Assembly: GCA_003279685.1 (NCBI GenBank)
Contig: QCHA01000002.1
Location: forward strand, 16,303-80,302
Direction: 5' to 3'
DNA: 64,000 nucleotides
Source of the DNA: Pelagibacteraceae bacterium AG-390-L03
GTDB lineage: Bacteria; Pseudomonadota; Alphaproteobacteria; Pelagibacterales; Pelagibacteraceae
The notes beneath the pieces were generated by a model that was given only the letters and a program-made list of their open reading frames with translations, searched no databases and was not told the origin of the DNA. The stretch's first letter is position 1. Each line of letters begins with the position of its first letter. The position numbers were made by a program, and so were the translations under genes. This document shows positions 44,641 through 56,919 of this stretch, piece after piece.

Positions 44641-45600
44641 ATGGGGCGAATGCCTAGACAAAATAATAATCCAAAAGGAATATTATACATCTTGTTAGCC
44701 ATGATGGTTTTTTCAGTACAGGACGGAATTATGAAACATATTTATAATTTTGTTTCACTTTATGAAGTTTACTTAGTTAGAACTGTAATAAGTTTTGTAC
44801 TTATTCTAACATTTTTAATACTCACAAAAAAACCCATAGTATTTAAAAGTAAATATCCAGTTTTAACTTTTTTTCGTGTAATACTTTTTTTCTTTGGCTT
44901 TAGTTCTTTTTATATTTCTTTAACAGTACTACCACTTGGCACTGCTACAGCTTTATTTTTTGTTACTCCATTTTTAATTACAATATTTGCTCATTTTTTT
45001 TTGAAAGAAGAAATAGGAATGAGAAGATGGTCTGCTGTAGTTGTTGGATTTATTGGAGTTTATATAACTTTAAATCCTGATTTCAGTAATTTTAACTATT
45101 TAAGCTTACTGCCTATTTTATGTGCATTTTGTTATTCATTATCGATGATAATAATAAAAAAAACATCTGATAAAGATAGCGTTTATACACAAACATTTAC
45201 ATTTTACATTGGTGCAATAATTTTAAGTATAATTTTTTATTTCATTATTGGAGATGGTCAATACAACACTTCAGATCATCCAGCTTCTCAATTTATATTT
45301 AGGGAATGGTTTGTTGATTTTAATAGTAGTATTCTTCTAATGAGTATAACTGGAGTTACAGCTACCGTGGCTTTTCTTTTATTATTTACAGCTTATAGCA
45401 TAGCTTCTCCATCTGTAATTTCACCTTTTGAATATTCAATATTATTTTGGTCACCATTATTAGGATGGTTATATTTTGATGAAATACCAACATTAAGTAC
45501 CGTGATAGGAATTTTAATAATTGTATCAAGTGGTATTTATATTTTCATACGTGAAAAAGCTCAAGATCAATCTATAGCTACAGAAAAACCTCTTAGGTAA
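44641..45600 (+). CDS. DMT/EamA family transporter
   Basis: About 10 TM helices, LSIFFLKE-type motif (AHFFLKEEIG), PFEYS. Confidence 0.85.
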   Translation: MGRMPRQNNNPKGILYILLAMMVFSVQDGIMKHIYNFVSLYEVYLVRTVISFVLILTFLILTKKPIVFKSKYPVLTFFRVILFFFGFSSFYISLTVLPLGTATALFFVTPFLITIFAHFFLKEEIGMRRWSAVVVGFIGVYITLNPDFSNFNYLSLLPILCAFCYSLSMIIIKKTSDKDSVYTQTFTFYIGAIILSIIFYFIIGDGQYNTSDHPASQFIFREWFVDFNSSILLMSITGVTATVAFLLLFTAYSIASPSVISPFEYSILFWSPLLGWLYFDEIPTLSTVIGILIIVSSGIYIFIREKAQDQSIATEKPLR

Positions 45601-46569
45601 ATGACAAAAAACATAGTTCCTACTATTAATATTTCATCTATAGTAAAAAATGGTTTTGACAATTCAAAATCAATTATAGCTATTAATAAAATTAGAAATG
45701 CTTGTATTAATATTGGTTTTTTTCAAATTACAGGTCATGGTATAAGTCAAAAAGATATTAAAAATATTTGTAAAATTGGAAATAAATTTTTTAATTCATC
45801 TGAAAAAAATAAAAAAAAATTAGCTCCAAAAAAGTGGAATAAAAAAAATAAGAATACATACAGAGGCTATTTTCCAAATAGCGTTAATGGTAAAGAAGGA
45901 TTGGATTTAGGTGATCTCAAAATAACGCCTCATAATTTAAAAAAATACAGATCTCCTTTTATAGAGTATCTGGACTTAAATAAATCTTTTGATAAATCTT
46001 CTATTAAAAGTCTGTCAAATTATTTTGATGATATTTTTTCTTTAGGTGAAATATTGTTTAAAGGAATAATTAAGCTTTATAACAAAGATGATAGTATCAG
46101 TAATAGAGCTTTCTCAAGACTTAAAACTTTAAGTACATTAAGATTTAACTACTATCCTAATCAAACTAAACCAGTTGAAATTTCAAAACAAGATGGTGTA
46201 GCTCTTGGATGTGAAACGCATGTTGATAGTGGAGTTTTTACTGTTCTTTACCAAGATAAAAAAGGTGGTCTTCAAGTACAAAATAGAAAAAATAAAAAAT
46301 GGTATGATGTGCCATTTAATAAAAAAGCTTTAGTGGTAAATACAGGAAGAACATTAGAGCTTTTAAGTAAAGGAAAGTTTAAAGCAACAAATCATAGAGT
46401 GTTATGGAACAAAAGTAAGAGATTATCTGTTCCCTTTTTTTTTGAACCCTCTTACGACTTTAAAATGAATAAATGTTTCCTAAATTCAAAAGAAAATTCA
46501 AAATCAGGGCAGATATATGAAAAATTTTTAAATCGATCTTTGATGAAATTTGTCGAATATCAACGGTAA
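45601..46569 (+). CDS. Isopenicillin-N-synthase-like Fe(II)/2OG oxygenase
   Basis: GFFQITGHG, RGYF, LRFNYYP, HVD, GLQV, HRV, RLSVPFF. Confidence 0.88.
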   Translation: MTKNIVPTINISSIVKNGFDNSKSIIAINKIRNACINIGFFQITGHGISQKDIKNICKIGNKFFNSSEKNKKKLAPKKWNKKNKNTYRGYFPNSVNGKEGLDLGDLKITPHNLKKYRSPFIEYLDLNKSFDKSSIKSLSNYFDDIFSLGEILFKGIIKLYNKDDSISNRAFSRLKTLSTLRFNYYPNQTKPVEISKQDGVALGCETHVDSGVFTVLYQDKKGGLQVQNRKNKKWYDVPFNKKALVVNTGRTLELLSKGKFKATNHRVLWNKSKRLSVPFFFEPSYDFKMNKCFLNSKENSKSGQIYEKFLNRSLMKFVEYQR

Positions 46570-46627: not shown

Positions 46628-47779
46628 ATGTCTAAAGTATTTGATTTATTCATAATAGGTGGTGGTATAAACGGAGCAGGTATTGCAAGAGATGCTGCAG
46701 GCAGAGGTTTTTCTGTTTGTTTAGCTGACAAAGGTGAGATTGGAGGAGCAACTTCTTCTTGGTCTACAAAATTAATTCATGGTGGCCTTCGTTATTTAGA
46801 AAATTATGAATTTAAATTAGTAAGAGAGTCTCTTAAAGAAAGAGAAATTGTTTACAGAATTGCAAAAAACATTTCAAAACCAATTCCATTTATTATTCCT
46901 CATACTGATAAAATTAGACCAGCATGGTTAATTAAATTTGGTTTGCTTTTGTATGATAATTTAGGCGGGAAAACTAGTATTCCAAAATCAAAAACATTAG
47001 ATCTAAATAAAAAATTTCCAAATATTCTTAAGGAGAAATACAAAACTGGTTTTCAATATTACGATATTCAAATTGATGATAAAAAATTAACAAAATTAAA
47101 TGCTCAAGATGCAAAAAAAAATAAAGCTAAAATACTAGAATACAACAAAGTTAAAAAAGCTGAAATTATTAATAATGAATGGGTCATTAGTCTTCAAAAC
47201 AGAAAAAAAATAAAATCAAAAGTTCTAATCAATGCATCTGGACCATGGATAAATGAAACTTTGCATAAAAATATAAAAATAAAATCTAAAAATAAAATAA
47301 GATTAGTTAAAGGAAGTCACATTATTACTAAGAAATTATATAAAGAAGATGTTGCATTTACATTTCAAAATACAGATAAAAGAATAATATTTGTAATTCC
47401 CTACAAAAAAAATTTTTCATTAATTGGAACAACTGAAGTGGAAGTTAAATCGCCTGAAAATACTGTAATATCAAAACAAGAAACTCAATATTTAATTCGA
47501 TCTGTAAATAATTATTTAAAAAAACAAATTAGCAAAAAGGATATAGTTGATACTTATTCTGGCATAAGGCCATTGATAGAAGATTTTAAAGAGGCCTCAA
47601 AAGTTACAAGAGATTATGTTTTTGATTTAAAAATTGTAAAAAAATTACCTCTTTTAAACATTTATGGAGGAAAACTTACTACATACAGAAAGTTGTCTGA
47701 AAAAGTCCTCATAGACCTTAAAAAGTTTTTACCCAAAACAAAAGTGGGACCCTGGACTTCAAAGAAAAAACTGATTTAA
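46628..47779 (+). CDS. glpD: FAD-dependent glycerol-3-phosphate dehydrogenase, C-terminally short
   Basis: GGGINGAG, TSSWSTKLIHGGLRYLE, KGSHI, GIRPL, GGKLTTYR. Confidence 0.88.
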   Translation: MSKVFDLFIIGGGINGAGIARDAAGRGFSVCLADKGEIGGATSSWSTKLIHGGLRYLENYEFKLVRESLKEREIVYRIAKNISKPIPFIIPHTDKIRPAWLIKFGLLLYDNLGGKTSIPKSKTLDLNKKFPNILKEKYKTGFQYYDIQIDDKKLTKLNAQDAKKNKAKILEYNKVKKAEIINNEWVISLQNRKKIKSKVLINASGPWINETLHKNIKIKSKNKIRLVKGSHIITKKLYKEDVAFTFQNTDKRIIFVIPYKKNFSLIGTTEVEVKSPENTVISKQETQYLIRSVNNYLKKQISKKDIVDTYSGIRPLIEDFKEASKVTRDYVFDLKIVKKLPLLNIYGGKLTTYRKLSEKVLIDLKKFLPKTKVGPWTSKKKLI

Positions 47780-47785
47780 AATATT

Positions 47786-48250
47786 TTACCTAGAATTAAT
47801 ATATTTTCTATTAAATGCAGTTACTATATCAGCAAGTCTTGGATTTACCTTTTCAATTTCAGAAATAGACTCAATCACCATCATATCTGCTTGCGCAGGA
47901 TCCATCATATTTTCTGACTCCATTAATCTGATTGAAAAAATTAATGACCCTTCATTAAGTAGTACGCCTGCTGAGTTTGCATTTTCTTCAATTCTCTCTT
48001 GCATAAAAATTTGTCTATCAATAAGTGACTTGTAATCTTCATAGATATTATCAACTTTTTGCTCTACTTTTGTAAGTATTTCCTTTTGAGCTATTGCCTT
48101 ACTTTCAGCTGTATTTTTAAGATAGAAACCTAAAAAAATTATAAAAGCAGAAGCAATTATACATAAAAGAGTTATTGAATAATTTTTTATATTTTCTGAT
48201 GAATTTGCCATTATTAAAAATAATATAAATTGTGATAATTTTGAATACAA
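47786..48250 (-). CDS. Hypothetical membrane-anchored coiled-coil protein
   Basis: One TM helix followed by an E/K/Q-rich helix; true start may be the second Met (MANSS). Confidence 0.55.
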   Translation of the reverse strand: MYSKLSQFILFLIMANSSENIKNYSITLLCIIASAFIIFLGFYLKNTAESKAIAQKEILTKVEQKVDNIYEDYKSLIDRQIFMQERIEENANSAGVLLNEGSLIFSIRLMESENMMDPAQADMMVIESISEIEKVNPRLADIVTAFNRKYINSR

Positions 48251-48305: not shown

Positions 48306-48366
48306 AAAGCGATACATAACTCGTCGTTAAAATCAAAGATTTACGAAAGTGGGATCGGTCGTCTTT
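48306..48366 (+). promoter_or_regulatory. Candidate structured 5' leader RNA
   Basis: About 42% GC over 48309-48363 in an AT-rich spacer; nested complementary segments; ends ~15 nt before AGGAGG. No known Rfam family recognised. Confidence 0.3.
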
Positions 48367-48390
48367 AAATTAACTTTTAAAGGAGGCTTT

Positions 48391-49560
48391 ATGAAATTTG
48401 GTTATTTTTGTAATACCACAAACTGGACACACAAACCTTATCACGAACTATTAGATGAAACTAGAGAGATTACTGAATATTGTGATCAGAACAAATGGAA
48501 TTCTATTTGGTATACGGAACATCATTTTAACCATGAAGGAATGGAATCTTGTACAAACCCATTAATGATGGGTACAGATGCTGCTGCAAGAACTAAACAA
48601 ATTAGAATTGGTCAGGCATGTAATGTAATTACATTTCATAATCCTATACAGATGGCCGAAGATGTGGCTCTTTTAGATCAATTATCTAAAGGTAGAGTTG
48701 AAGTCGGTATTGGTAGAGGAATTTATGGAAGAGAAGCTGTAAATTTAAATATTGAAGCTGATATGAAAGATCAGGCTAAAAACTTTAGACTATTTGAAGA
48801 AACTTTAACTATTTTAAAGAAAGCCTGGAAAGAAAAATTTTTTGATCATAAGGGTGAATTTTACACTTATCCATCACCTGATTATGTTTGGCAGCATGAT
48901 ATGAGCAAACCAAGTGAAGAATTTATGGATATGGAAACTAATGTAATGAAAAAAATTAGCGTTCTACCTCAGCCATATCAAAAACCTTACCCGCCAATTC
49001 ATCAAGTTGTAGATGGTATCAGGTCTATTGAATGGGCTGCGCAACAAGGCTTAAATATTATTATGTGGATACCAACAGTTAAAGCATTAAAAATTAAATT
49101 TGAAGCTTTCAAGAATGCAAAATCTGAAGCTGAAAAAAGAAATGTGCCAATGGGTGAAGGAATTTCGCTTGTAAGAGATATGTTTGTTGCAGATACTATG
49201 GAAGAAGCCAAAGAAAAAGCTGGTGAGCATATGGTAAATTACATGAGATGGGTTTGTCACTGGAGGGGTCTAGGAAATCATATGGATCCAGGTGAAGAAC
49301 TTCCAGAAACTAAAGGTAAATTAGATTTATTAAATTATGAATTTTTACACAAAAGAAATATGTTATTTGGAACTCCAGAATATGTTGCTGATAAAATTCA
49401 TGAATTAAAATCCGAACTAAACTTACAAAACTTACAAGTTTGGTCAAATTTTCCTGGAGTGAAACATGAAGATTGTATGAAAAGTATTAAACTTTTTACT
49501 GAAAAAGTTATGCCTCACTTCCAAGATGATATAGAGACTGAAGTCAAAAAAGTTTCGTGA
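48391..49560 (+). CDS. Luciferase-like (LLM) flavin-dependent monooxygenase (start revised to ATG 48391)
   Basis: AGGAGG at 48381-48386 before MKFG; WYTEHHF, EDVALLDQLSKGRVEVGIGRG, GTPEYV. Confidence 0.9.
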   Translation: MKFGYFCNTTNWTHKPYHELLDETREITEYCDQNKWNSIWYTEHHFNHEGMESCTNPLMMGTDAAARTKQIRIGQACNVITFHNPIQMAEDVALLDQLSKGRVEVGIGRGIYGREAVNLNIEADMKDQAKNFRLFEETLTILKKAWKEKFFDHKGEFYTYPSPDYVWQHDMSKPSEEFMDMETNVMKKISVLPQPYQKPYPPIHQVVDGIRSIEWAAQQGLNIIMWIPTVKALKIKFEAFKNAKSEAEKRNVPMGEGISLVRDMFVADTMEEAKEKAGEHMVNYMRWVCHWRGLGNHMDPGEELPETKGKLDLLNYEFLHKRNMLFGTPEYVADKIHELKSELNLQNLQVWSNFPGVKHEDCMKSIKLFTEKVMPHFQDDIETEVKKVS

Positions 49561-51257
49561 TCAAATCACATAAGAAAATATCTGGTGGCCAGGCTGCCAT
49601 TCAATCTTTAAAAAAAGAAAAAGTTGAACATGTTTTTGGTCTTATCGGTTCTGCTACAATGGAGATGTTTGATGCTCTTTACCATGAAAAAAAAATAAAA
49701 TTTATTGGAGTAAGAGATGAAAGAACAGGCACTCATATGGCTGACGGGTATGCAAGAGCCTCGAACAAACCAGGTGTTATAATAGCTGGACAAAATGGAC
49801 CTGGAGCTACAAACTTAGTAACTGGTGTTGCTCAAGCAAAAGCTGCTTTTTCACCTGTAATTTCAATTGCTGGCTCTTATTCCACAAAAGATAAAATGGA
49901 AGATGCATTTCAGGGTCTTGATCAGCAATCTTTATTTACTCCAATTACAAAGAAAACCTGGACTGTTAAAAATTCAAAAATGATACCTAATGTTATGAGT
50001 GATGCTTTTAGCCTTGCAATGAAACCTAGAAGAGGTCCAGTTTGTGTTAATCTACCAAGAAATATTTTAGCAGCAACAAATACTTATAAAATCAATACTA
50101 ATAAGCCCTCTTTTGAAAGCGAGAGCAGTCTTAAAGGTAAAAAAGAAAAAATAAAAAAAGCTGCAAAAATTATAAATCAAGCAAGTCAATTTGTAATAAT
50201 TGCTGGTGGTGGGATTAAATATACCACTAAATATAAAGAAGTAATCAAACTTGCTGAATTGTTAAATGTACCAATTGTTACTGCAGCTGGCCATGGCGAT
50301 GCCATTCCATTTAATCATAGACTGAATGCAGGACAGATGGGACCCCGTGGAAATCCTGTTGCATCAAGACTTGTTAAAGAAGCAGATGTCATTTTAGCAA
50401 TTGGGACTAGATTAGGTTTTAACTCTACTTTTTACTCTTACGAAAACATAAATAAAAAGGCAAAAATTATTCAAATTGAAATTGAAAAAAAAATGCTTGG
50501 AAAATATTTTCCAATAGTTGTTGGAATTAATGCTGATGCAGCCACTGCCACCAATCAAATATATAATGAAATTAAAAAACAGAAAATTAAATTAGATATA
50601 AAAAATTGGACAAACTCATATTTAAAAGAAAGAAAAGATTATTTAAGTAACAGAGATAGAGATAATCTTGGAAAAAACTTCCCTATTCAACCAAAAGGGT
50701 TATTTAAACAATTAAGAAAAGCTCTACCAAAAGATACTGCTATTACTTTAGATGCAGGAACACTTTGTTTGCAGGCAACAGATGTTTTAGAATATTATAA
50801 TCCACCTTCATTATTTACACCTTTAGACTTTGGATTGGTGGGTTTTTCATTTGCATGCGGTCTTGGTGTTAAAATCGCAAAACCTAAAAAAACTGTTGTC
50901 AGCTTGATGGGAGATGGTGGTTTTGGCATGACTATATCTGAATTAAGCACTGCTGTTGAATATGGAATAAACACAACAACTATTGTAATGAATAATCAAA
51001 GTTGGGGGGCAGAAAAAGCTTACCAAAAAGATTTTTTTGGAAAAAGATATTTGGGTGCAGATATTACTAGCCCTTCATTTGATAAAGTTGCAGAATTATA
51101 TGGTGCAAAAGGGTTTAAGGTTAAAAAAATTTCTGAAGTAAATGAGGCTGTTAGAGCAGCTATTAAATCTAATAAACCTGCAGTAGTTGATGTTGATGTG
51201 GATCCTAGTGCATTATATAGTTTTAGAAGAGATAGTTTTAAACATAGGCAAAAATAA
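49557..51257 (+). CDS. Thiamine-diphosphate-dependent enzyme, Xsc/acetolactate-synthase-like
   Basis: FGLIGS, RDE, NGPG, GDGG...NN ThDP motif, WGAEK. Confidence 0.85.
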   Translation: MIKSHKKISGGQAAIQSLKKEKVEHVFGLIGSATMEMFDALYHEKKIKFIGVRDERTGTHMADGYARASNKPGVIIAGQNGPGATNLVTGVAQAKAAFSPVISIAGSYSTKDKMEDAFQGLDQQSLFTPITKKTWTVKNSKMIPNVMSDAFSLAMKPRRGPVCVNLPRNILAATNTYKINTNKPSFESESSLKGKKEKIKKAAKIINQASQFVIIAGGGIKYTTKYKEVIKLAELLNVPIVTAAGHGDAIPFNHRLNAGQMGPRGNPVASRLVKEADVILAIGTRLGFNSTFYSYENINKKAKIIQIEIEKKMLGKYFPIVVGINADAATATNQIYNEIKKQKIKLDIKNWTNSYLKERKDYLSNRDRDNLGKNFPIQPKGLFKQLRKALPKDTAITLDAGTLCLQATDVLEYYNPPSLFTPLDFGLVGFSFACGLGVKIAKPKKTVVSLMGDGGFGMTISELSTAVEYGINTTTIVMNNQSWGAEKAYQKDFFGKRYLGADITSPSFDKVAELYGAKGFKVKKISEVNEAVRAAIKSNKPAVVDVDVDPSALYSFRRDSFKHRQK

Positions 51258-51887
51258 ATGTCACAAAAAGATATTGGTAATAAAATTCCAATTTATAAAT
51301 TAAAAGCAGGTAAGGAAGTTGAAGATTATTATGACGAATGGACTGTTGAAAATAAATATGACAAGGATATGGTTGATTGGAAATATTCTGGACCTCAAGA
51401 AACTGTAGACCTTTTTAACAAACATGTTCCCAACAAAGATATAAAAATTTTAGATGCAGGTTGTGGGACTGGTTTAGTAGGTATTGAGCTAAAAAAACAT
51501 GGTTTTAAAAACTTTGATGGAGCTGATTTTTCACAAAAAATGCTGGACTTGGTACCAGAGAATATTTATCAAAACTTATTCAAAATCGATCTAAATAAAA
51601 AAGTTGATATAAAAGATAATACTTATGATGGGATAACCTGCGTTGGTACTTTTACATTTGGTCACGTTAACCCCCCTGCTTTAGATGAAATGGTAAGAAT
51701 TTGTAAAACAGGATCATTTATTTGTTTTACAATTAATCTAGGTATTTACGAAGAATATGGATTTGACAAAAAGATCAAAGAATTAGAAGATAAGAATTCT
51801 TGGAAAATAATTGAATTCTTTAAATCAAATTATATTGCAAGCAAAGGAGTAAATGCTTGGTTAGTGTTAGCTCAAGTAACAAAATAA
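51258..51887 (+). CDS. Class I SAM-dependent methyltransferase
   Basis: YDEW, ILDAGCGTGLVG, GADFSQKML, VGTFTFGH. Confidence 0.88.
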   Translation: MSQKDIGNKIPIYKLKAGKEVEDYYDEWTVENKYDKDMVDWKYSGPQETVDLFNKHVPNKDIKILDAGCGTGLVGIELKKHGFKNFDGADFSQKMLDLVPENIYQNLFKIDLNKKVDIKDNTYDGITCVGTFTFGHVNPPALDEMVRICKTGSFICFTINLGIYEEYGFDKKIKELEDKNSWKIIEFFKSNYIASKGVNAWLVLAQVTK

Positions 51888-51893
51888 AAAATT

Positions 51894-52481
51894 ATGGATA
51901 TTAATTTAAGAAAATTTACAAAATTTGTTGATAAAACTTTCATTGAAGGTGGTAAAAAGGCTAATGAACCAGTTTTGTTAGTTTCGGTTGCTGCTGTATT
52001 TAAAAATCCTTGGCATGGACAAGGTTTTGTTGAAGATTTAAGACCTATAATTTTAGATTTAGCACCTAAGCTCGGTGATTTATTAGTGCCCGAACTAATT
52101 AAAGAAATTGGATCTCCAGAAAAAATATTAGCATATGGTAAAGCTGGGGTAGTTGGTTTAAATGGAGAGATAGAACATGCTTCAGCTTTTATACATACAT
52201 TAAGATTTGGTAATAAATTTAGAGATGCTGTTGGTGGAACTTCTTATTTAAGTTTTACAAATACTAGAGGACCAGCTGGATCTAAAATTTCAATTCCAAT
52301 GATGCATAAAACGGACTCAGGATTGCGACCGTATTATTTAACACACGAATTTACGATACATGATGCTCCATTCGATGATGAAATTGTTATAGCAATTGGA
52401 GGAGCTTCAAGTGGAAGAGCTCATGCAAGAACTGGTGATAGATATCAAGATATGAAAGAAATGGGTATTGAGCCTAAGTAA
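51894..52481 (+). CDS. Amino-acid-synthesis family (DUF1185) protein
   Basis: AAVFKNPW, YGKAGVVG.NGEIEHASA, PMMHK, DAP..DE. Confidence 0.85.
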   Translation: MDINLRKFTKFVDKTFIEGGKKANEPVLLVSVAAVFKNPWHGQGFVEDLRPIILDLAPKLGDLLVPELIKEIGSPEKILAYGKAGVVGLNGEIEHASAFIHTLRFGNKFRDAVGGTSYLSFTNTRGPAGSKISIPMMHKTDSGLRPYYLTHEFTIHDAPFDDEIVIAIGGASSGRAHARTGDRYQDMKEMGIEPK

Positions 52482-52484
52482 TAT

Positions 52485-53270
52485 TTGATGACAACCGGGA
52501 ATACTGCATCAGGTACTTTTTATATCTTCAATAAAAAAGAGCAATCAATCCCAATAGTTTTTATTCATGGTGTTGGTTTAACTTATGAAATCTGGCAACC
52601 ACAATTAAATTTTTTTAAAAATTACTCTAATCTTTCATATGATATTCTTGGTCATGGAAGGTCATCTTTAACAAAACAAAATATAAGTTTTGATGATTTT
52701 TCAGAACAGCTTATAGAATTAATTGATGAACTTAAAATTAAAAAAATTCATTTAGTTGGTTTTTCAATTGGATCTTTAATAGCTAGAAATTTTGCAACTA
52801 GATATGGTGACCGATTACAATCATTGATTCTTTTAGGTTCAATATACAAACGATCTGAACAACAACAAAAAATAGTTAATGAAAGATTTGATCAAGCTAA
52901 AAAAGAATTAAAACTCTCAAGACAAGCGTTGAAAAGATGGTTTACAGACAAATATTTAGAAAATAACCCTGATACTTATGAAAAAATTAGTTCAATTTTA
53001 TCTGCAAATAATATGGCTAATTTTTTAAAAGTTTATGAGTTATTTGTTAGACATAAAAATGATGAAGACTTTGAAAAAATCTATTGCAAAACCTTAGTAA
53101 TGACTGGAGAACATGATATTGGGTCTACAATTGAAATGTCACAACAGTTAAACAACATAATTAAAAATAGTGAACTAAAGATCATCAAAGATGGTAAACA
53201 TCTTTGTGGTATTGAGTGTGCAGATGATGTAAATTTAGCAATCAAAAAATTTGTAGACAAAAATGACTAA
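52485..53270 (+). CDS. Alpha/beta hydrolase (TgnD-like context)
   Basis: IHGVG, YDILGHG, GFSIG, TGEHDIGST, H at GKH. Confidence 0.85.
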   Translation: MMTTGNTASGTFYIFNKKEQSIPIVFIHGVGLTYEIWQPQLNFFKNYSNLSYDILGHGRSSLTKQNISFDDFSEQLIELIDELKIKKIHLVGFSIGSLIARNFATRYGDRLQSLILLGSIYKRSEQQQKIVNERFDQAKKELKLSRQALKRWFTDKYLENNPDTYEKISSILSANNMANFLKVYELFVRHKNDEDFEKIYCKTLVMTGEHDIGSTIEMSQQLNNIIKNSELKIIKDGKHLCGIECADDVNLAIKKFVDKND

Positions 53271-54744
53271 GCTAAAACAGTATAAAATGTTCATTAATGG
53301 GGAGTGGGTTGACTCGGAAAGTAAAAGAACTTTTGAAACTTTAAACCCAGAAAACAATGAACCTTGGGCAATTGTTCCAGAAGCAAGTGCTAAAGATGTA
53401 AACAACGCAGTTAATGCGGCACAAAAAGCATTCGAAGGTGAGTGGCCTAAATTACTTCCAAGAGAAAGAGCTAAATTCTTAAGAGCTATTGGAGATCAAT
53501 TGAGACAAAACGCAGAGATGTTAGGTGAAATAGAAACGATTGATACTGGAAAACTTTTTAGAGAAACAAAAAAACAAGCAATCTATATTGCTGAGTATTA
53601 TGATTATTATGCAGGTCTTGCTGATAAAGTTGAAGGAACAGTTCTTCCAATTGATAAACCAAATGTTCAAGCGATAACTACAAGAATTCCAATTGGTGTT
53701 ATTGCTGCAATCATTCCTTGGAATTCACAAATGTTTTTAACAGCAACAAAATTAGCTCCTGCCCTTGCTATGGGGAATACAGTTGTAATTAAATCTTCAG
53801 AATTAGCACCCGCTGTAATGTTTGAATTTGCAAAACTTATTGAAAAAACTGGTATTCCTAAAGGAGTAGTAAATGTTATCACTGGCTTTGGTGATCCGTG
53901 TGGAAAAACTCTAACAACACATAACTTAGTTGAAAAAATTGCTTTTACTGGTGGACCTGAAACAGCAAGACATATAATTAGAAATTCAGCAGATAATTTA
54001 TCAGAAGTAAGTTTAGAACTAGGTGGAAAAAGTCCTGTTGCTGTATTTGATGATGCAGAACAAGAAAATGCAATAAATGGTATTGTTGCTGGAATTTTTG
54101 GTGCAAGCGGTCAAAGTTGTATAGCTGGTTCAAGACTTTATATTCAAAAAGGCATTTATGATGAATTTTTAGACAAACTCTCAAAACGTGCATCAAAAAT
54201 TAAAATTGGTGCTCCTATGGACTCTGAAACTGAGATGGGACCATTAAGTAGTTTTAAACAATTAGAAACAATTGAAAAAAATATAAAAGCGACAATTGAC
54301 CAAGGTGGAAAAATAAAGTGTGGTGGTAAACGACACTCTTTTTCTAACAAAGGATACTATTTTCCAGCGACAATTGTAGAATGCGACAACCATAATTTAC
54401 CTGTTGCAGAAAATGAATTATTTGGACCAGTTCTATCTGTTATGAAATTTGACACTGAAGAAGAAGTAATAAATAAGATGAATGATAATCAGTATGGATT
54501 ATCGTCTGGAGTTTATACCAGCAATCTTTCAAGAGGAATGAGAGTTTCTAAAGCAATAAGAGCAGGGATAACTTTTGTAAATACTTATAGATTAATTTCT
54601 CCATCTGCTCCATTTGGAGGTATTAAAGATAGTGGTTATGGTAAAGAAGCAGGAATCGAGTCAATAAAAGATTATACAAGAGTTAAAACAACTTGGTTCT
54701 ATACTTCTGATGAACCTTCACTAGACCCTTTTTCAATCAGGTAA
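53263..54744 (+). CDS. Aldehyde dehydrogenase (TgnC-like)
   Basis: PWNSQ, FTGGPETARH, LELGGKSP, GQSCIAG, ELFGPV, C-terminal DPFSIR. Confidence 0.9.
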   Translation: MTKLKQYKMFINGEWVDSESKRTFETLNPENNEPWAIVPEASAKDVNNAVNAAQKAFEGEWPKLLPRERAKFLRAIGDQLRQNAEMLGEIETIDTGKLFRETKKQAIYIAEYYDYYAGLADKVEGTVLPIDKPNVQAITTRIPIGVIAAIIPWNSQMFLTATKLAPALAMGNTVVIKSSELAPAVMFEFAKLIEKTGIPKGVVNVITGFGDPCGKTLTTHNLVEKIAFTGGPETARHIIRNSADNLSEVSLELGGKSPVAVFDDAEQENAINGIVAGIFGASGQSCIAGSRLYIQKGIYDEFLDKLSKRASKIKIGAPMDSETEMGPLSSFKQLETIEKNIKATIDQGGKIKCGGKRHSFSNKGYYFPATIVECDNHNLPVAENELFGPVLSVMKFDTEEEVINKMNDNQYGLSSGVYTSNLSRGMRVSKAIRAGITFVNTYRLISPSAPFGGIKDSGYGKEAGIESIKDYTRVKTTWFYTSDEPSLDPFSIR

Positions 54745-54748
54745 TATT

Positions 54749-55606
54749 TTGTCCCCAAAACACACTGTATTAATTGTTTTGGTGATGTTTTTTCTTGGTA
54801 GCGCTTATCCACTTGGTAAATTTGGATTAAATGCTTCAATGAATCCAATTTTCTTTGGTGCATTAAGAATGGGCTTTGTTTTTTTATGTTTATTACCATT
54901 TTGCAAAATAATTATTCCTAAAAAGAAATATATATTACCTTTAATAGGATTTTCTCTTTGTATGGGTGCGGGTGTAAATATGTTTTTATACTTATCTATC
55001 AATGCAGTGACTTTATTGGCTCCTATTACAATTGGAGCACAACTATCTATACCGTTTGCAATACTAATAAGTTCTTTATTTTTAAAAGAAAGTATTAGTT
55101 TAAAAAAATGGATTTTTATTTTTTCATCATTTTTAGGAATACTATTTATAGCTTTTGATCCAAATATTTTCGATGAAATTGTTGGTACTTTTTTGGTTTT
55201 TGGAATGGCCTTTTTTTATGGACTATCTCAAGTTTTTTCAAGATACATAAAAGACCTAGATGTAAAGTTTACAAACGCTTTTATGGGGCTTATAGGTTTT
55301 TTAGTCTTGATTATTTTTTCTCAAATATTTGAAGGAAACATCGTTAAACAAATGGAGAAAGTTGAAACAAATGGTTGGCTTGCGGTTATGTATGCTGGAA
55401 TGATCATTTCAATTTTAGGACACATGATGATGTTTTATCTTTATAAATTTTATCCAATAGGAATGGTCATGCCTTTTTATTCACTATTTCCTGTTTTTGG
55501 ACTGATATTAACTTTCTTTATATTTGGCGAAGTACCCTCTTTAATAACAGTATTTGGCGGTATAGTTGTAATAACATCAATATATTTACTTCAAAAAACT
55601 AAGTAA
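54749..55606 (+). CDS. DMT/EamA family transporter (TTG start)
   Basis: About 10 TMs, duplicated EamA pattern, FLKES. Confidence 0.82.
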   Translation: MSPKHTVLIVLVMFFLGSAYPLGKFGLNASMNPIFFGALRMGFVFLCLLPFCKIIIPKKKYILPLIGFSLCMGAGVNMFLYLSINAVTLLAPITIGAQLSIPFAILISSLFLKESISLKKWIFIFSSFLGILFIAFDPNIFDEIVGTFLVFGMAFFYGLSQVFSRYIKDLDVKFTNAFMGLIGFLVLIIFSQIFEGNIVKQMEKVETNGWLAVMYAGMIISILGHMMMFYLYKFYPIGMVMPFYSLFPVFGLILTFFIFGEVPSLITVFGGIVVITSIYLLQKTK

Positions 55607-55681: not shown

Positions 55682-56872
55682 ATGAAAAAACTATTTATTG
55701 CTGCATTTATGCTTGTTTCAAGTTTTGGAACAAATGTAATGGCAGACGGACATGCGATTAAAATGGGGATTATCTTAGGATTTACTGGTCCTATTGAATC
55801 TCTAACACCAGCTATGAGAGACTCAGCTAAATTAGCTTTTGAAGAAGCTTCAGCGTCTGGATCTTTATTGGGTGGAAAAAAAATATCAGTTTTAGAAGCA
55901 GACTCAACTTGTGTTGACTCAGCAGCAGCAACTGCAGCAGCTGAAGGATTAATATCACAAGGTGTAGCGGCTATAATGGGTGCTGACTGTTCAGGTGTTA
56001 CGGGTGCAATTGCATCTAACGTTGCTGTACCTAATGGTGTAGTGATGATTTCACCATCAGCAACTTCTCCAGGATTAACAACTCTAGATGATAATGGATA
56101 TTTCTTTAGAACAGCTCCATCAGATGCTAGAGGTGGTCAAATCTTAGCTGATATTACTAAAGATAGAAAAGTTAAAAGTGTAGCAATTACTTACACTAAC
56201 AATGACTATGGTAAAGGCTTAGCTGATGTTTATAAAGCAGCAGTTGAAAGTCATGGTATTAAAGTAACTACTGTAACTGCTCACGAAGATGGTAAAGCAG
56301 ATTACTCATCTGAAGTTGCAACTCTTGCTTCAGCGGGTGGTGATGCTGTAGCTGTAATTGGCTACCTAGACCAAGGTGGAAAAGGAATTATTCAAGCTTC
56401 TTTAGACTCTGGAGCATTTGATACATTCGTTTTATCTGATGGTATGATAGGTCAATCTCTAGTTGATGCATTTGGAAAAGATTTAAGTAAATCTTTTGGT
56501 TCAATGCCTGGTTCAACTGGAAAAGGTGCTGGTGTATTTGCTGATGTAGCAAAAGCTGGAGGAATTGATTCTTCTGGACCATACACAGGCGAGTCATACG
56601 ACGCAGCAGCTTTGATAGTATTAGCAATGCAAGCAGGTAATTCTGCTGACAGAGCATCAATTGCAAAAAATGTAATGGGTGTTGCTAACGCTCCTGGAAC
56701 TAAAATTTATCCAGGTGAGCTTAAAAAAGGATTGGATTTACTAGCTAAAGGTAAAAAGATAAATTACGAAGGTGCAACTGGAGTAACTTTTACTAGTGTT
56801 GGTGAAGCTGAAGGTTCTTTCTTAGAGCAAGAAATCAAAGGTGGAAAATTCAAAACTAAAAAACAAAGATAA
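55682..56872 (+). CDS. livK: LivK/LivJ-type ABC substrate-binding protein
   Basis: Signal peptide, ILGFTGP, ISPSATSP, FFRTAPSD, NNDYGKG, YDAA. Confidence 0.88.
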   Translation: MKKLFIAAFMLVSSFGTNVMADGHAIKMGIILGFTGPIESLTPAMRDSAKLAFEEASASGSLLGGKKISVLEADSTCVDSAAATAAAEGLISQGVAAIMGADCSGVTGAIASNVAVPNGVVMISPSATSPGLTTLDDNGYFFRTAPSDARGGQILADITKDRKVKSVAITYTNNDYGKGLADVYKAAVESHGIKVTTVTAHEDGKADYSSEVATLASAGGDAVAVIGYLDQGGKGIIQASLDSGAFDTFVLSDGMIGQSLVDAFGKDLSKSFGSMPGSTGKGAGVFADVAKAGGIDSSGPYTGESYDAAALIVLAMQAGNSADRASIAKNVMGVANAPGTKIYPGELKKGLDLLAKGKKINYEGATGVTFTSVGEAEGSFLEQEIKGGKFKTKKQR

Positions 56873-56885
56873 TTATTATCTAATT

Positions 56886-56919
56886 AAAAACCCCAGTAAT
56901 GAAAATTACTGGGGTTTTT
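56886..56919. terminator. Bidirectional intrinsic terminator
   Basis: Perfect 15-bp stem aaaaaccccagtaat/attactggggttttt with GAAA loop, A-tract and T-tract on either side, between convergent genes. Confidence 0.9.

What the first reader, a model, noticed from the sequence alone, without database searches (positions are those of the whole stretch)
48391..55606. Seven-gene operon resembling trigonelline ring cleavage, plus a ThDP enzyme and methyltransferase
Seen: LLM monooxygenase, Xsc-like ThDP enzyme, SAM methyltransferase, DUF1185, alpha/beta hydrolase, ALDH (GGPETARH, DPFSIR) and EamA, with gaps of 6 nt or less or overlaps. Established (recalled): Acinetobacter tgn genes use an LLM oxygenase, flavin reductase, ALDH and hydrolase, with a small accessory protein, to open N-methylnicotinate. 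No flavin reductase here. Inference: variant pathway for a pyridinium betaine (trigonelline, homarine or similar), with the ThDP enzyme cleaving a downstream carbonyl.
Basis: partly seen in the sequence, partly recalled or inferred. Interest (0 to 1): 0.6.

Follow-up and report, generated by a model that had tools for sequence, protein, structure and literature searches.

The report
SAR11 trigonelline-like ring-opening operon
This is a real operon, common in the ocean bacterium SAR11, that shares three of its four core enzymes with the known trigonelline breakdown pathway but has a different ring-opening oxygenase. In this strain it also carries two optional extra enzymes, so it probably consumes trigonelline or a similar small N-methylated ring compound that has not been identified.

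Summary
Seven co-directional genes at 48391-55606 have junctions of -8 to +6 nt, and every family call was confirmed.

The unit is probably larger:
- a conserved riboswitch-like leader (about 48308-48390);
- a LivJ-type binding-protein gene (55682-56872);
- one strong terminator (56886-56919).

Comparison with 150 other SAR11-genus genomes shows a four-gene core: LLM, DUF1185, alpha/beta hydrolase and ALDH. The core is in 69 of 151 genomes. The ThDP enzyme is optional (33 of 151). The methyltransferase lies inside the operon in only 5 of 151.

ALDH (50-52%), DUF1185 (55-57%) and, weakly, the hydrolase (23-25%) are reciprocal best hits of the tgn-type cluster next to nifAB on S. meliloti pSymA. 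The LLM is not a TgnB orthologue. No PF01613 flavin reductase was found in the genome.

The ThDP enzyme is not Xsc, because a true Xsc lies elsewhere in the genome. It belongs to an unstudied sister clade whose other members sit in MttB/DMGDH quaternary-amine clusters. Homarine now has its own published pathway (hom).

This scan has already reported the same operon several times on other SAR11 genomes. I class it as a new variant of a known kind.

The parts
48308..48390 (+). Conserved structured 5' leader (riboswitch candidate). It has an invariant core (ACAUAACUC ... GGGAUC), a variable hairpin, and two mutually exclusive pairings of the UCUUU segment: one with an upstream arm, the other with the Shine-Dalgarno region.
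   Evidence: An alignment of 11 SAR11-order loci shows near-invariant blocks inside otherwise unalignable spacers. RNAalifold finds compensatory changes in 7 of 20 pairs. The closing helix can form in all 11 sequences with different letters and competes with the SD-sequestering hairpin. No Rfam family matches.
48391..49560 (+). Luciferase-like flavin monooxygenase (LLM), 389 aa. It is the proposed ring-opening oxygenase, from a branch separate from TgnB.
   Evidence: PF00296 at 3.4e-43, below every NCBIfam cut-off. It is the only LLM in the genome. Only 161 clusters at 50% identity reach E<1e-30, and the nearest ones are unnamed. The AlphaFold model has pLDDT 90, and its nearest folds are RslO1, LuxA/B, Atu2307 and 3,6-diketocamphane monooxygenase.
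49557..51257 (+). ThDP-dependent enzyme, 566 aa, from an uncharacterised sister clade of Xsc. It is an optional gene of the operon.
   Evidence: It has all three TPP domains. It scores 400-415 bits on the Xsc models (cut-offs 620-676) and 395 bits on ALS (cut-off 538). A true Xsc lies elsewhere in the genome. It is 29% identical to the genome's own Xsc and 28% to its ALS-like gene, yet shares QNGPG and WGAEK with Xsc. It is present in 33 of 151 genus genomes and directly follows the LLM wherever both were located.
51258..51887 (+). Class I SAM-dependent methyltransferase, 209 aa. It is rarely found inside this operon.
   Evidence: Methyltransf_25/11. The nearest solved structure is human METTL27. 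Homologues occur in 88 of 151 genus genomes, but only 5 lie inside this operon (89% identity or more). Those outside the operon are 56-71% identical; in the four such loci inspected the gene lies beside a Rieske oxygenase.
51894..52481 (+). PF06684 (DUF1185, 'AA_synth') protein, 195 aa, a TgnF homologue.
   Evidence: PF06684 at 7.4e-64, and the only copy in the genome. It is 55-57% identical to the tgn-type cluster protein and 93-98% conserved among the SAR11-genus loci examined.
52485..53270 (+). Alpha/beta-fold hydrolase, 261 aa, a distant TgnD-like candidate.
   Evidence: Abhydrolase_1 and PcaD-like below cut-off, with a GFSIG motif. It is a reciprocal best hit of the tgn-cluster hydrolase in 3 of 3 genomes, but at only 24-25%. 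The G847 hydrolase bridges the two at 33% and 36%.
53263..54744 (+). NAD(P)-dependent aldehyde dehydrogenase, 493 aa, the orthologue of the tgn-cluster ALDH that lies next to the LLM (TgnC position).
   Evidence: PF00171 at 2.5e-160. It is the best hit in 3 of 3 tgn-bearing genomes at 51-52% (550-562 bits, next best 373), and the reverse best hit scores 509 bits against 308. It is only 35% identical to the second ALDH on pSymA. Glu252 and Cys286 are present.
54749..55606 (+). EamA/DMT-family membrane transporter, 285 aa.
   Evidence: EamA with two repeats. It is conserved behind the ALDH in G413, G404, G405 and G416, but not in all genomes.
55682..56872 (+). LivJ-type periplasmic binding protein (Peripla_BP_6). 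It is probably the last gene of the transcript, and its membership is uncertain.
   Evidence: Pfam. The nearest solved structures are Leu/Ile/Val-binding proteins. It lies 75 nt after EamA with no terminator in between. It is conserved in this position in G413, G404, G405 and G418. A convergent livHMGF-type ABC operon follows.
56886..56919 (.). Strong hairpin terminator shared with the convergent liv operon.
   Evidence: A 15-pair stem followed by a T run. It is much the longest stem among the terminator-like sites between 48391 and 57300.

Best explanation
This is a substrate-inducible catabolic operon for a small N-methylated aromatic N-heterocyclic carboxylate. Trigonelline itself, or a close relative, is the leading candidate.

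Proposed steps (all inferred):
1. The substrate enters through the EamA carrier and/or the Liv-type binding protein and ABC system.
2. The substrate binds the leader RNA. This frees the ribosome-binding site and turns translation on.
3. The LLM takes reduced flavin from a general reductase encoded elsewhere. It attacks the iminium-like ring carbon with flavin peroxide and opens the ring to an N-formyl aldehyde or lactol, as TgnAB does.
4. The TgnC-like ALDH oxidises that aldehyde.
5. The TgnD-like hydrolase, helped by the DUF1185 protein, removes formate and methylamine and releases a C4 semialdehyde for central metabolism. From its fold, DUF1185 may handle an enamine or imine.

Two further enzymes are strain-specific additions. 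The Xsc-sister ThDP enzyme probably converts a carbonyl product or a second, related substrate. The methyltransferase may N-methylate an unmethylated precursor so that it becomes a substrate.

What is shown: gene content, operon structure, orthology of three proteins, non-orthology of the LLM, and the optional status of the ThDP enzyme and methyltransferase.
For: - Operon structure: tight junctions, a ribosome-binding site, one terminator and a conserved leader.
- Core: LLM-DUF1185-hydrolase-ALDH is kept in all SAR11 loci examined and in a second family of the order.
- Orthology: ALDH, DUF1185 and the hydrolase are reciprocal best hits of the tgn-type cluster DUF1185-hydrolase-PF01613 reductase-LLM-ALDH on pSymA and a Leisingera plasmid.
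- The pSymA cluster lies 3-14 kb downstream of nifB. From memory of Boivin et al. 1991, that is where the trc trigonelline genes map.
- An unrelated alphaproteobacterium (G847) combines two SAR11-type LLMs with the same three partner proteins.
- Literature: TgnAB opens the trigonelline ring (PMC13236597), and TgnF (DUF1185) assists TgnE (PMC7913881).
- The LLM model falls with LuxA and type II Baeyer-Villiger enzymes, which attack carbonyl-type carbons, and not with SsuD or MsuD.
- Relatives of the accessory genes live in methylated-amine clusters: the ThDP enzyme with MttB/DMGDH, and the methyltransferase with a Rieske oxygenase plus a DMGDH-like or EgtB-like gene.
Against: - The LLM is only 23-31% identical to TgnB-type LLM and is not its orthologue.
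- Hydrolase orthology rests on 23-25% identity.
- There is no flavin reductase in the operon and no PF01613 match in the genome.
- No TgnE-type second ALDH is in the cluster.
- No role for a ThDP enzyme or a methyltransferase follows from the known trigonelline chemistry.
- Paralogues of this LLM family sit in unrelated contexts: esterase/GST, acyl-CoA genes and amino-acid ABC systems.
- I never obtained the Acinetobacter Tgn proteins themselves, so the comparison is with rhizobial and roseobacter clusters of the same architecture.
- There are no expression or growth data.
Confidence: 0.5

Rival explanations
1. Baeyer-Villiger-type route for a cyclic ketone, lactone or other non-nitrogen ring. 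The LLM inserts oxygen, the alpha/beta hydrolase acts as a lactonase or esterase, and the ALDH oxidises the resulting aldehyde.
For: - The nearest full-length solved relatives include 3,6-diketocamphane monooxygenase, a type II BVMO.
- The hydrolase's best NCBIfam match is 3-oxoadipate enol-lactonase, below cut-off.
- A 30%-identical LLM in G160 sits beside an esterase and a GST.
Against: - Three of the four core proteins are reciprocal best hits of the tgn-type cluster.
- The relatives of the accessory genes live in methylated-amine clusters.
- DUF1185 has no known place in lactone routes.
Confidence: 0.12
2. The LLM and ThDP enzyme act as an independent pair on a sulfonate or another X-acetaldehyde precursor. 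The LLM releases an aldehyde, and the Xsc-like enzyme turns it into acetyl phosphate plus a leaving group.
For: - The two genes overlap by 4 nt.
- The ThDP enzyme shares the QNGPG and WGAEK motifs with Xsc.
- Its nearest outside relatives follow an aminotransferase and demethylases, as Xsc follows Tpa.
Against: - About half of the SAR11 operons keep a 75-82% identical LLM with no ThDP gene.
- The genome has a genuine Xsc elsewhere, and this enzyme is only 29% identical to it.
- The LLM fold groups with LuxA and BVMO enzymes rather than SsuD, MsuD or SfnG.
- No pta or sulfite-exporter family appeared among the genes scanned from 42037 to 62665.
Confidence: 0.1
3. A Rut-like route for a non-aromatic or amide N-heterocycle (a pyrimidine, lactam or cyclic ureide). 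The LLM would act like RutA, the hydrolase like RutD, and DUF1185 like the RidA-type RutC.
For: - The same enzyme logic applies: LLM, alpha/beta hydrolase, and a chorismate-mutase-fold protein (PMC7913881, citing Bakolitsa 2010).
- The hydrolase matches RutD at 3e-21.
- In G847 an isochorismatase-family (RutB/PncA-type) gene sits next to one LLM copy.
Against: - RutA scores 20 bits against a cut-off of 498, and RutD 76 bits against 238.
- The ALDH and DUF1185 are clear orthologues of the tgn-type proteins.
Confidence: 0.1
4. The substrate is homarine (N-methylpicolinate).
For: Homarine is abundant in seawater and is an isomer of trigonelline. A ring-opened 2-carboxy product would give a 2-oxo acid that a ThDP enzyme could decarboxylate (inference).
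Against: A different operon (homABCDER: a FAD protein, HomB, a peptidase and an ALDH-like enzyme) was shown genetically to carry homarine catabolism. It is reported in all 120 Pelagibacter genomes that carry it, in a form without homE, and its product is N-methylglutamate (PMC13236597).
Confidence: 0.05

Closest known systems
Trigonelline catabolic cluster tgn (TgnA-F; Acinetobacter baylyi ADP1, Perchat et al. 2018). It is represented here by clusters of the same architecture on S. meliloti pSymA (L021/L023) and a Leisingera plasmid (L022).
   Same: - LLM oxygenase, alpha/beta hydrolase, ALDH and DUF1185 occur in one operon.
- ALDH (50-53%) and DUF1185 (55-57%) are clear reciprocal best hits.
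- The hydrolase is a weak reciprocal best hit (23-25%).
- DUF1185 is directly followed by the hydrolase in both.
   Different: - The LLM comes from another branch: 389 aa against 346 aa, and 23-31% identity.
- There is no TgnA-type PF01613 reductase in the operon or the genome.
- There is no second (TgnE-type) ALDH in the cluster.
- Control appears to be by an RNA leader; no regulator gene lies next to the operon, whereas the Leisingera cluster has an adjacent GntR gene.
- Extra ThDP enzyme, methyltransferase, EamA carrier and Liv-type binding protein are present.
- The substrate has not been shown.
Sulfoacetaldehyde acetyltransferase Xsc (TIGR03457 / PRK07525)
   Same: ThDP enzyme with three domains that shares the QNGPG and WGAEK motifs and the catalytic Glu.
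   Different: It scores 400-415 bits against cut-offs of 620-676 and is 29% identical to the genome's own Xsc. It is equally distant from ALS. There is no taurine or sulfonate gene context.
Homarine operon homABCDER (Ferrer-Gonzalez et al. 2026, PMC13236597)
   Same: A SAR11-borne operon for an N-methylpyridinium carboxylate that includes an ALDH-like enzyme.
   Different: As described in the paper, its enzyme families differ: FAD-binding HomA, HomB and peptidase HomC. It has no LLM, DUF1185, alpha/beta hydrolase or ThDP enzyme. I did not compare the sequences.
Rut pyrimidine pathway (RutA-G)
   Same: An LLM opens an N-heterocycle, followed by an alpha/beta hydrolase and a protein with a chorismate-mutase-like fold.
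   Different: No Rut model reaches its cut-off, and the partner proteins are orthologues of Tgn proteins instead.
LuxA / type II Baeyer-Villiger LLMs (bacterial luciferase, 3,6-diketocamphane monooxygenase, RslO1)
   Same: These are the nearest folds to the LLM model (TM about 0.74-0.87). They are two-component, FMNH2-dependent enzymes with a TIM-barrel fold.
   Different: Sequence identity is 18-22%, and the LLM carries an extra insertion at about residues 150-200. The substrates are unrelated.

Membership tests
tgn trigonelline cluster | TgnB-type LLM oxygenase (orthologue) | tested here: not met
   Identity to the tgn-type LLM is 23-25% overall. Only about 160 N-terminal residues align, at 29-31%, and in G441 another LLM scores higher.
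tgn trigonelline cluster | TgnA-type flavin reductase (PF01613) beside the oxygenase | tested here: not met
   There is none in the operon. No PF01613 match was found in the 93%-complete genome, and tblastn with the pSymA reductase finds nothing.
tgn trigonelline cluster | ALDH in the TgnC position (next to the LLM) | tested here: met
   It is a reciprocal best hit at 50-52%, scoring 550-562 bits against 373 for the next paralogue in 3 of 3 genomes.
tgn trigonelline cluster | TgnD alpha/beta hydrolase | tested here: inconclusive
   It is a reciprocal best hit in 3 of 3 genomes, but at 23-25% (77-79 bits against 57-64). The G847 protein bridges the two at 33% and 36%.
tgn trigonelline cluster | TgnF (PF06684/DUF1185) | tested here: met
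   It is the only PF06684 gene in the genome, at 55-57% identity.
tgn trigonelline cluster | TgnE succinate-semialdehyde dehydrogenase in the cluster | tested here: not met
   The second pSymA ALDH finds its best match on another contig (C10, 39%).
tgn trigonelline cluster | Activity on trigonelline | not testable with these tools
   This needs enzyme assays or growth or uptake tests.
Xsc (sulfoacetaldehyde acetyltransferase) | Score above the NCBIfam equivalog cut-off (TIGR03457, 676.4 bits) | tested here: not met
   It scores 399.8 bits, whereas the genome's true Xsc scores 963.9 bits.
Acetolactate synthase large subunit | Score above the TIGR00118 cut-off (538 bits) | tested here: not met
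   It scores 395.4 bits.
Rut pathway | RutA and RutD equivalog scores | tested here: not met
   RutA scores 20.3 bits against 498.3, and RutD 75.8 bits against 238.5.
homABCDER homarine operon | HomA (FAD-binding), HomB, HomC (peptidase) and HomD gene set | not tested
   The Hom sequences and HMMs were not available, because no supplement is held. The families described in the paper differ from those found here.
Riboswitch (any Rfam family) | Match to a curated covariance model | tested here: not met
   The only match is a chance K10_TLS hit at E=1.7.

The most novel reading that the evidence does not exclude
The operon degrades an abundant marine N-heterocycle that has not been identified and is not trigonelline. 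It is sensed directly by an undescribed riboswitch class. Three further points would be new: the SAR11-type LLM would be a new ring-opening oxygenase lineage working without a dedicated reductase; the Xsc-sister ThDP enzyme would be a new lyase that makes an acyl phosphate from an aldehyde product; and the methyltransferase would prime unmethylated precursors by N-methylation.
Probability: 0.25. Interest if true: 0.75.

Novelty: new variant of a known kind. Interest (0 to 1): 0.55.

Why it matters
SAR11 is the most abundant heterotroph in the surface ocean, and about half of the sampled genomes of this genus carry the operon. Knowing its substrate would therefore add a measurable flux to the marine carbon and nitrogen budget. 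I found no paper linking SAR11 to trigonelline breakdown. The operon also offers three tractable biochemical unknowns: an LLM branch with no characterised member, a sister clade of Xsc, and an orphan riboswitch candidate whose ligand should be the substrate.

Tried and rejected
- The Perchat 2018 paper is not held, so Tgn facts come from two citing papers and from memory.
- I could not obtain the Acinetobacter Tgn proteins. The single genome-contig scan returned only Rhizobiaceae and relatives.
I used the genome search at class level instead.
- The nearest LLM clusters carry no informative names.
- No supplement of the hom paper is held, so I could not search for hom genes in this genome.
- The BbmA/CsmA literature search gave nothing useful.
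- An apparent LLM-ThDP fusion in G559 (698-aa open frame) is caused by one extra A in a poly-A run next to a contig end. I rejected it as evidence of fusion.
- The promoter consensus scan gave fewer sites than shuffled sequence and is uninformative in this 30% GC DNA.
- The contexts of the LLM paralogues in G709, G695 and G160 are heterogeneous and did not point to a substrate.

Full report
**What is there**

The window comes from a 1.35-Mb genome with about 30% GC, 93% complete, whose LLM homologues are labelled Candidatus Pelagibacter (SAR11). Seven + strand ORFs fill 48391-55606. Their junctions are a 4-nt overlap, 0, 6, 3, an 8-nt overlap and 4 nt.

Pfam confirms the families:
- luciferase-like monooxygenase (LLM);
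- a three-domain ThDP enzyme;
- a class I SAM methyltransferase;
- PF06684 (formerly DUF1185);
- an alpha/beta hydrolase;
- an aldehyde dehydrogenase (ALDH);
- an EamA carrier.

The LLM starts at the ATG at 48391, behind AAAGGAGG, and its homologues are 389 aa long.

A LivJ-type binding-protein gene follows after 75 nt. The first strong terminator lies at 56886-56919 and is shared with a convergent livHMGF-type operon. The transcription unit therefore probably has eight genes.

**Core and accessory genes**

I compared the operon with ten other loci from the same genus and two from a second family of the order.
- LLM, DUF1185, hydrolase and ALDH are always present in that order.
- The ThDP gene is present in some loci and absent from others.
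- The methyltransferase is absent from all twelve.

In an even sample of 151 genomes of the genus:
- The LLM is in 69 (15 of the 27 high-quality ones), in two main identity bands: 85% or more, and 75-80%.
- The ThDP gene is in 33. These all belong to the upper band, and wherever both genes were located it directly follows the LLM.
- A methyltransferase homologue is in 88, but only five (89% identity or more, including this genome) lie inside the operon. In the 25 other loci fetched (65-71% identity) none of the operon genes lies within the 1.5-kb flanks; in the four inspected, the gene lies beside a Rieske-type oxygenase, with a DMGDH-like or EgtB-like gene on the other side in three of them.
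- This genome has only the in-operon copy, and its Rieske homologue lies on another contig.

So 'seven-gene operon' describes this strain. The conserved unit is four genes plus variable transport genes.

**Relation to the trigonelline genes**

The literature held here says two things. TgnA and TgnB are a flavin-supplying and an oxygen-activating pair that open the trigonelline ring (PMC13236597). The DUF1185 protein TgnF stimulates the semialdehyde dehydrogenase TgnE (PMC7913881).

A protein search of plasmids with the DUF1185 protein found clusters on S. meliloti pSymA and a Leisingera plasmid. Their order is DUF1185, hydrolase, PF01613 flavin reductase, LLM (346 aa), ALDH, ABC transporter. 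The pSymA copy lies 3-14 kb downstream of nifB, and a second ALDH follows its transporter genes. This fits my recollection of where the trc trigonelline genes map. That point, and the identification of the cluster with tgn, rest on memory and on architecture. I did not compare with the Acinetobacter proteins.

Identity of the window proteins to these clusters:

| Protein | Identity |
|---|---|
| DUF1185 | 55-57% |
| ALDH | 50-53% |
| Hydrolase | 23-25% |
| LLM | 23-25% |

The reciprocal tests gave these results.
- From pSymA into this genome, the best hits of DUF1185, the hydrolase and the first ALDH are the operon genes. The reductase finds nothing, and the second ALDH matches elsewhere.
- From the window into three tgn-bearing genomes, the ALDH picks the cluster ALDH in all three (550-562 bits, next best 373).
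- The hydrolase picks the cluster hydrolase in all three, but narrowly (77-79 bits against 57-64).
- The LLM aligns only over its first 160 residues and is not consistently closest to the tgn LLM.

A locus in another alphaproteobacterial family (G847) combines two SAR11-type LLMs (44%) with an ALDH, a DUF1185 protein and a hydrolase.
- The ALDH is 61% identical to the pSymA ALDH and 52% to the SAR11 one.
- The DUF1185 protein is 59% identical to both.
- The hydrolase is 33% identical to the SAR11 hydrolase and 36% to the pSymA one.

This locus bridges the two hydrolases. It also shows that pairing this LLM branch with the Tgn-like trio is not peculiar to SAR11.

**The LLM**

- It is the only LLM in the genome.
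- It reaches no NCBIfam cut-off.
- Across 1.8 billion representatives, only 161 clusters at 50% identity reach E<1e-30. The nearest non-SAR11 full-length ones are 43% identical or less and unnamed.
- It is rare outside SAR11: 1 of 400 genomes sampled from the phylum and 5 of about 400 from the class.
- A confident model (pLDDT 90) is closest to RslO1, bacterial luciferases, Atu2307 and the type II Baeyer-Villiger enzyme 3,6-diketocamphane monooxygenase. SsuD, MsuD and SfnG rank lower.

The tgn-type LLM has the same best NCBIfam family (MupA/Atu3671). Enzymes of this group use flavin peroxide as a nucleophile on carbonyl-type carbons. Attack on the iminium-like carbon next to N+ of a pyridinium is therefore chemically reasonable, but this is inference.

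No PF01613 reductase was found in the genome, and two PF03358 homologues exist elsewhere.

**The ThDP enzyme**

- It scores 400-415 bits on the Xsc models and 395 bits on ALS, all below cut-off.
- The genome has a true Xsc on another contig (964 bits).
- It is 29% identical to that Xsc and 28% to the ALS-like paralogue.
- It shares the QNGPG and WGAEK motifs with Xsc, which ALS lacks.

Its nearest relative outside the order (40% identity, G036) lies in a cluster with the order LysR, MttB, class III aminotransferase, two DMGDH-like genes, ThDP enzyme, FAD protein. Among 37 metagenome loci of that branch, those long enough to show neighbours nearly all keep this block or part of it: in 26 of them one or more of MttB, DMGDH and the FAD protein lies beside the ThDP gene.

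The clade is thus tied to the breakdown of methylated amines, and its reaction is unknown. A sulfonate role here is unlikely but not excluded.

**Regulation**

The 140-nt spacer before the LLM contains near-invariant blocks that persist even in the second family of the order. A hairpin shows compensatory changes. A segment (UCUUU) can pair either with an upstream arm or with the Shine-Dalgarno region. No Rfam family matches. This looks like a translational ON switch, and its ligand would be expected to be the substrate.

**Reading**

The simplest account is a trigonelline-type pathway in which the TgnAB oxygenase has been replaced by another LLM lineage, with ThDP and methyltransferase add-ons in some strains.

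Homarine is less likely, since a different, genetically proven operon is reported in SAR11. Rival readings remain open: a Baeyer-Villiger or lactone route, a sulfonate or Xsc-like pair, and a Rut-like route for another heterocycle.

I found no paper linking SAR11 to trigonelline catabolism.

**Earlier scan findings**

This scan has already reported the same operon on other SAR11 genomes with the same reading, including the leader and an HTCC7211 version with the methyltransferase. I re-tested these points here. I added counts of the variants across 151 genomes, the usual home of the methyltransferase, the MttB context of the ThDP clade, the G847 bridge locus, and the fold placement of the LLM.

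Noticed in passing
window 48308-48390: Conserved riboswitch-like leader before the LLM, with no Rfam match. It seems to switch between a closing helix and a hairpin that hides the ribosome-binding site.
   Followed up: partly
L130:1-3627 and L146, L147 (other SAR11 genomes): The usual location of the methyltransferase homologue (56-71% identity) is directly beside a Rieske (Ring_hydroxyl_A) oxygenase, with a DMGDH-like, EgtB-like or APS-kinase-like gene on its other side. This suggests a role in betaine or N-methyl metabolism.
   Followed up: partly
L117:935-12800 and L148-L176: A conserved marine cluster with the order LysR, MttB, class III aminotransferase, two DMGDH-like genes, Xsc-sister ThDP enzyme, FAD_binding_2 protein. 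It is probably catabolism of an unidentified quaternary amine that ends in a ThDP-dependent step.
   Followed up: partly
L196:224-16853 (G847): A locus with two SAR11-type LLM paralogues (54% identical to each other), an isochorismatase-family hydrolase, an aldo/keto reductase, TetR, an ABC transporter, a TgnC-like ALDH, DUF1185, a hydrolase and a distant ThDP enzyme. It is a richer relative of the SAR11 operon.
   Followed up: partly
window 46628-47779: A GlpD-like FAD dehydrogenase of only 383 aa. It matches positions 4-392 of a 508-position glycerol-3-phosphate dehydrogenase model, so the C-terminal part is missing. The short form is conserved at 95% in G406.
   Followed up: no
window 47786-48250 (- strand): A 154-aa ORF with an N-terminal hydrophobic segment between the GlpD-like gene and the leader. 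It has no Pfam match and no homologue in the ten related loci checked. It may not be a real gene.
   Followed up: partly
window 44641-46569: An EamA carrier plus a 2OG-Fe(II) oxygenase lie just upstream of the ThDP-containing form of the operon in five genomes (this window, G404, G405, G406, G424). They were not seen next to the ThDP-less form.
   Followed up: partly
L185:1399-1520 (G559); G550 and L018 (G428): Damaged or mis-assembled copies. One extra A in a poly-A run merges the LLM and ThDP frames in G559. The ThDP gene of G550 has an internal TAA. The G428 ThDP gene matches in two separated pieces.
   Followed up: partly
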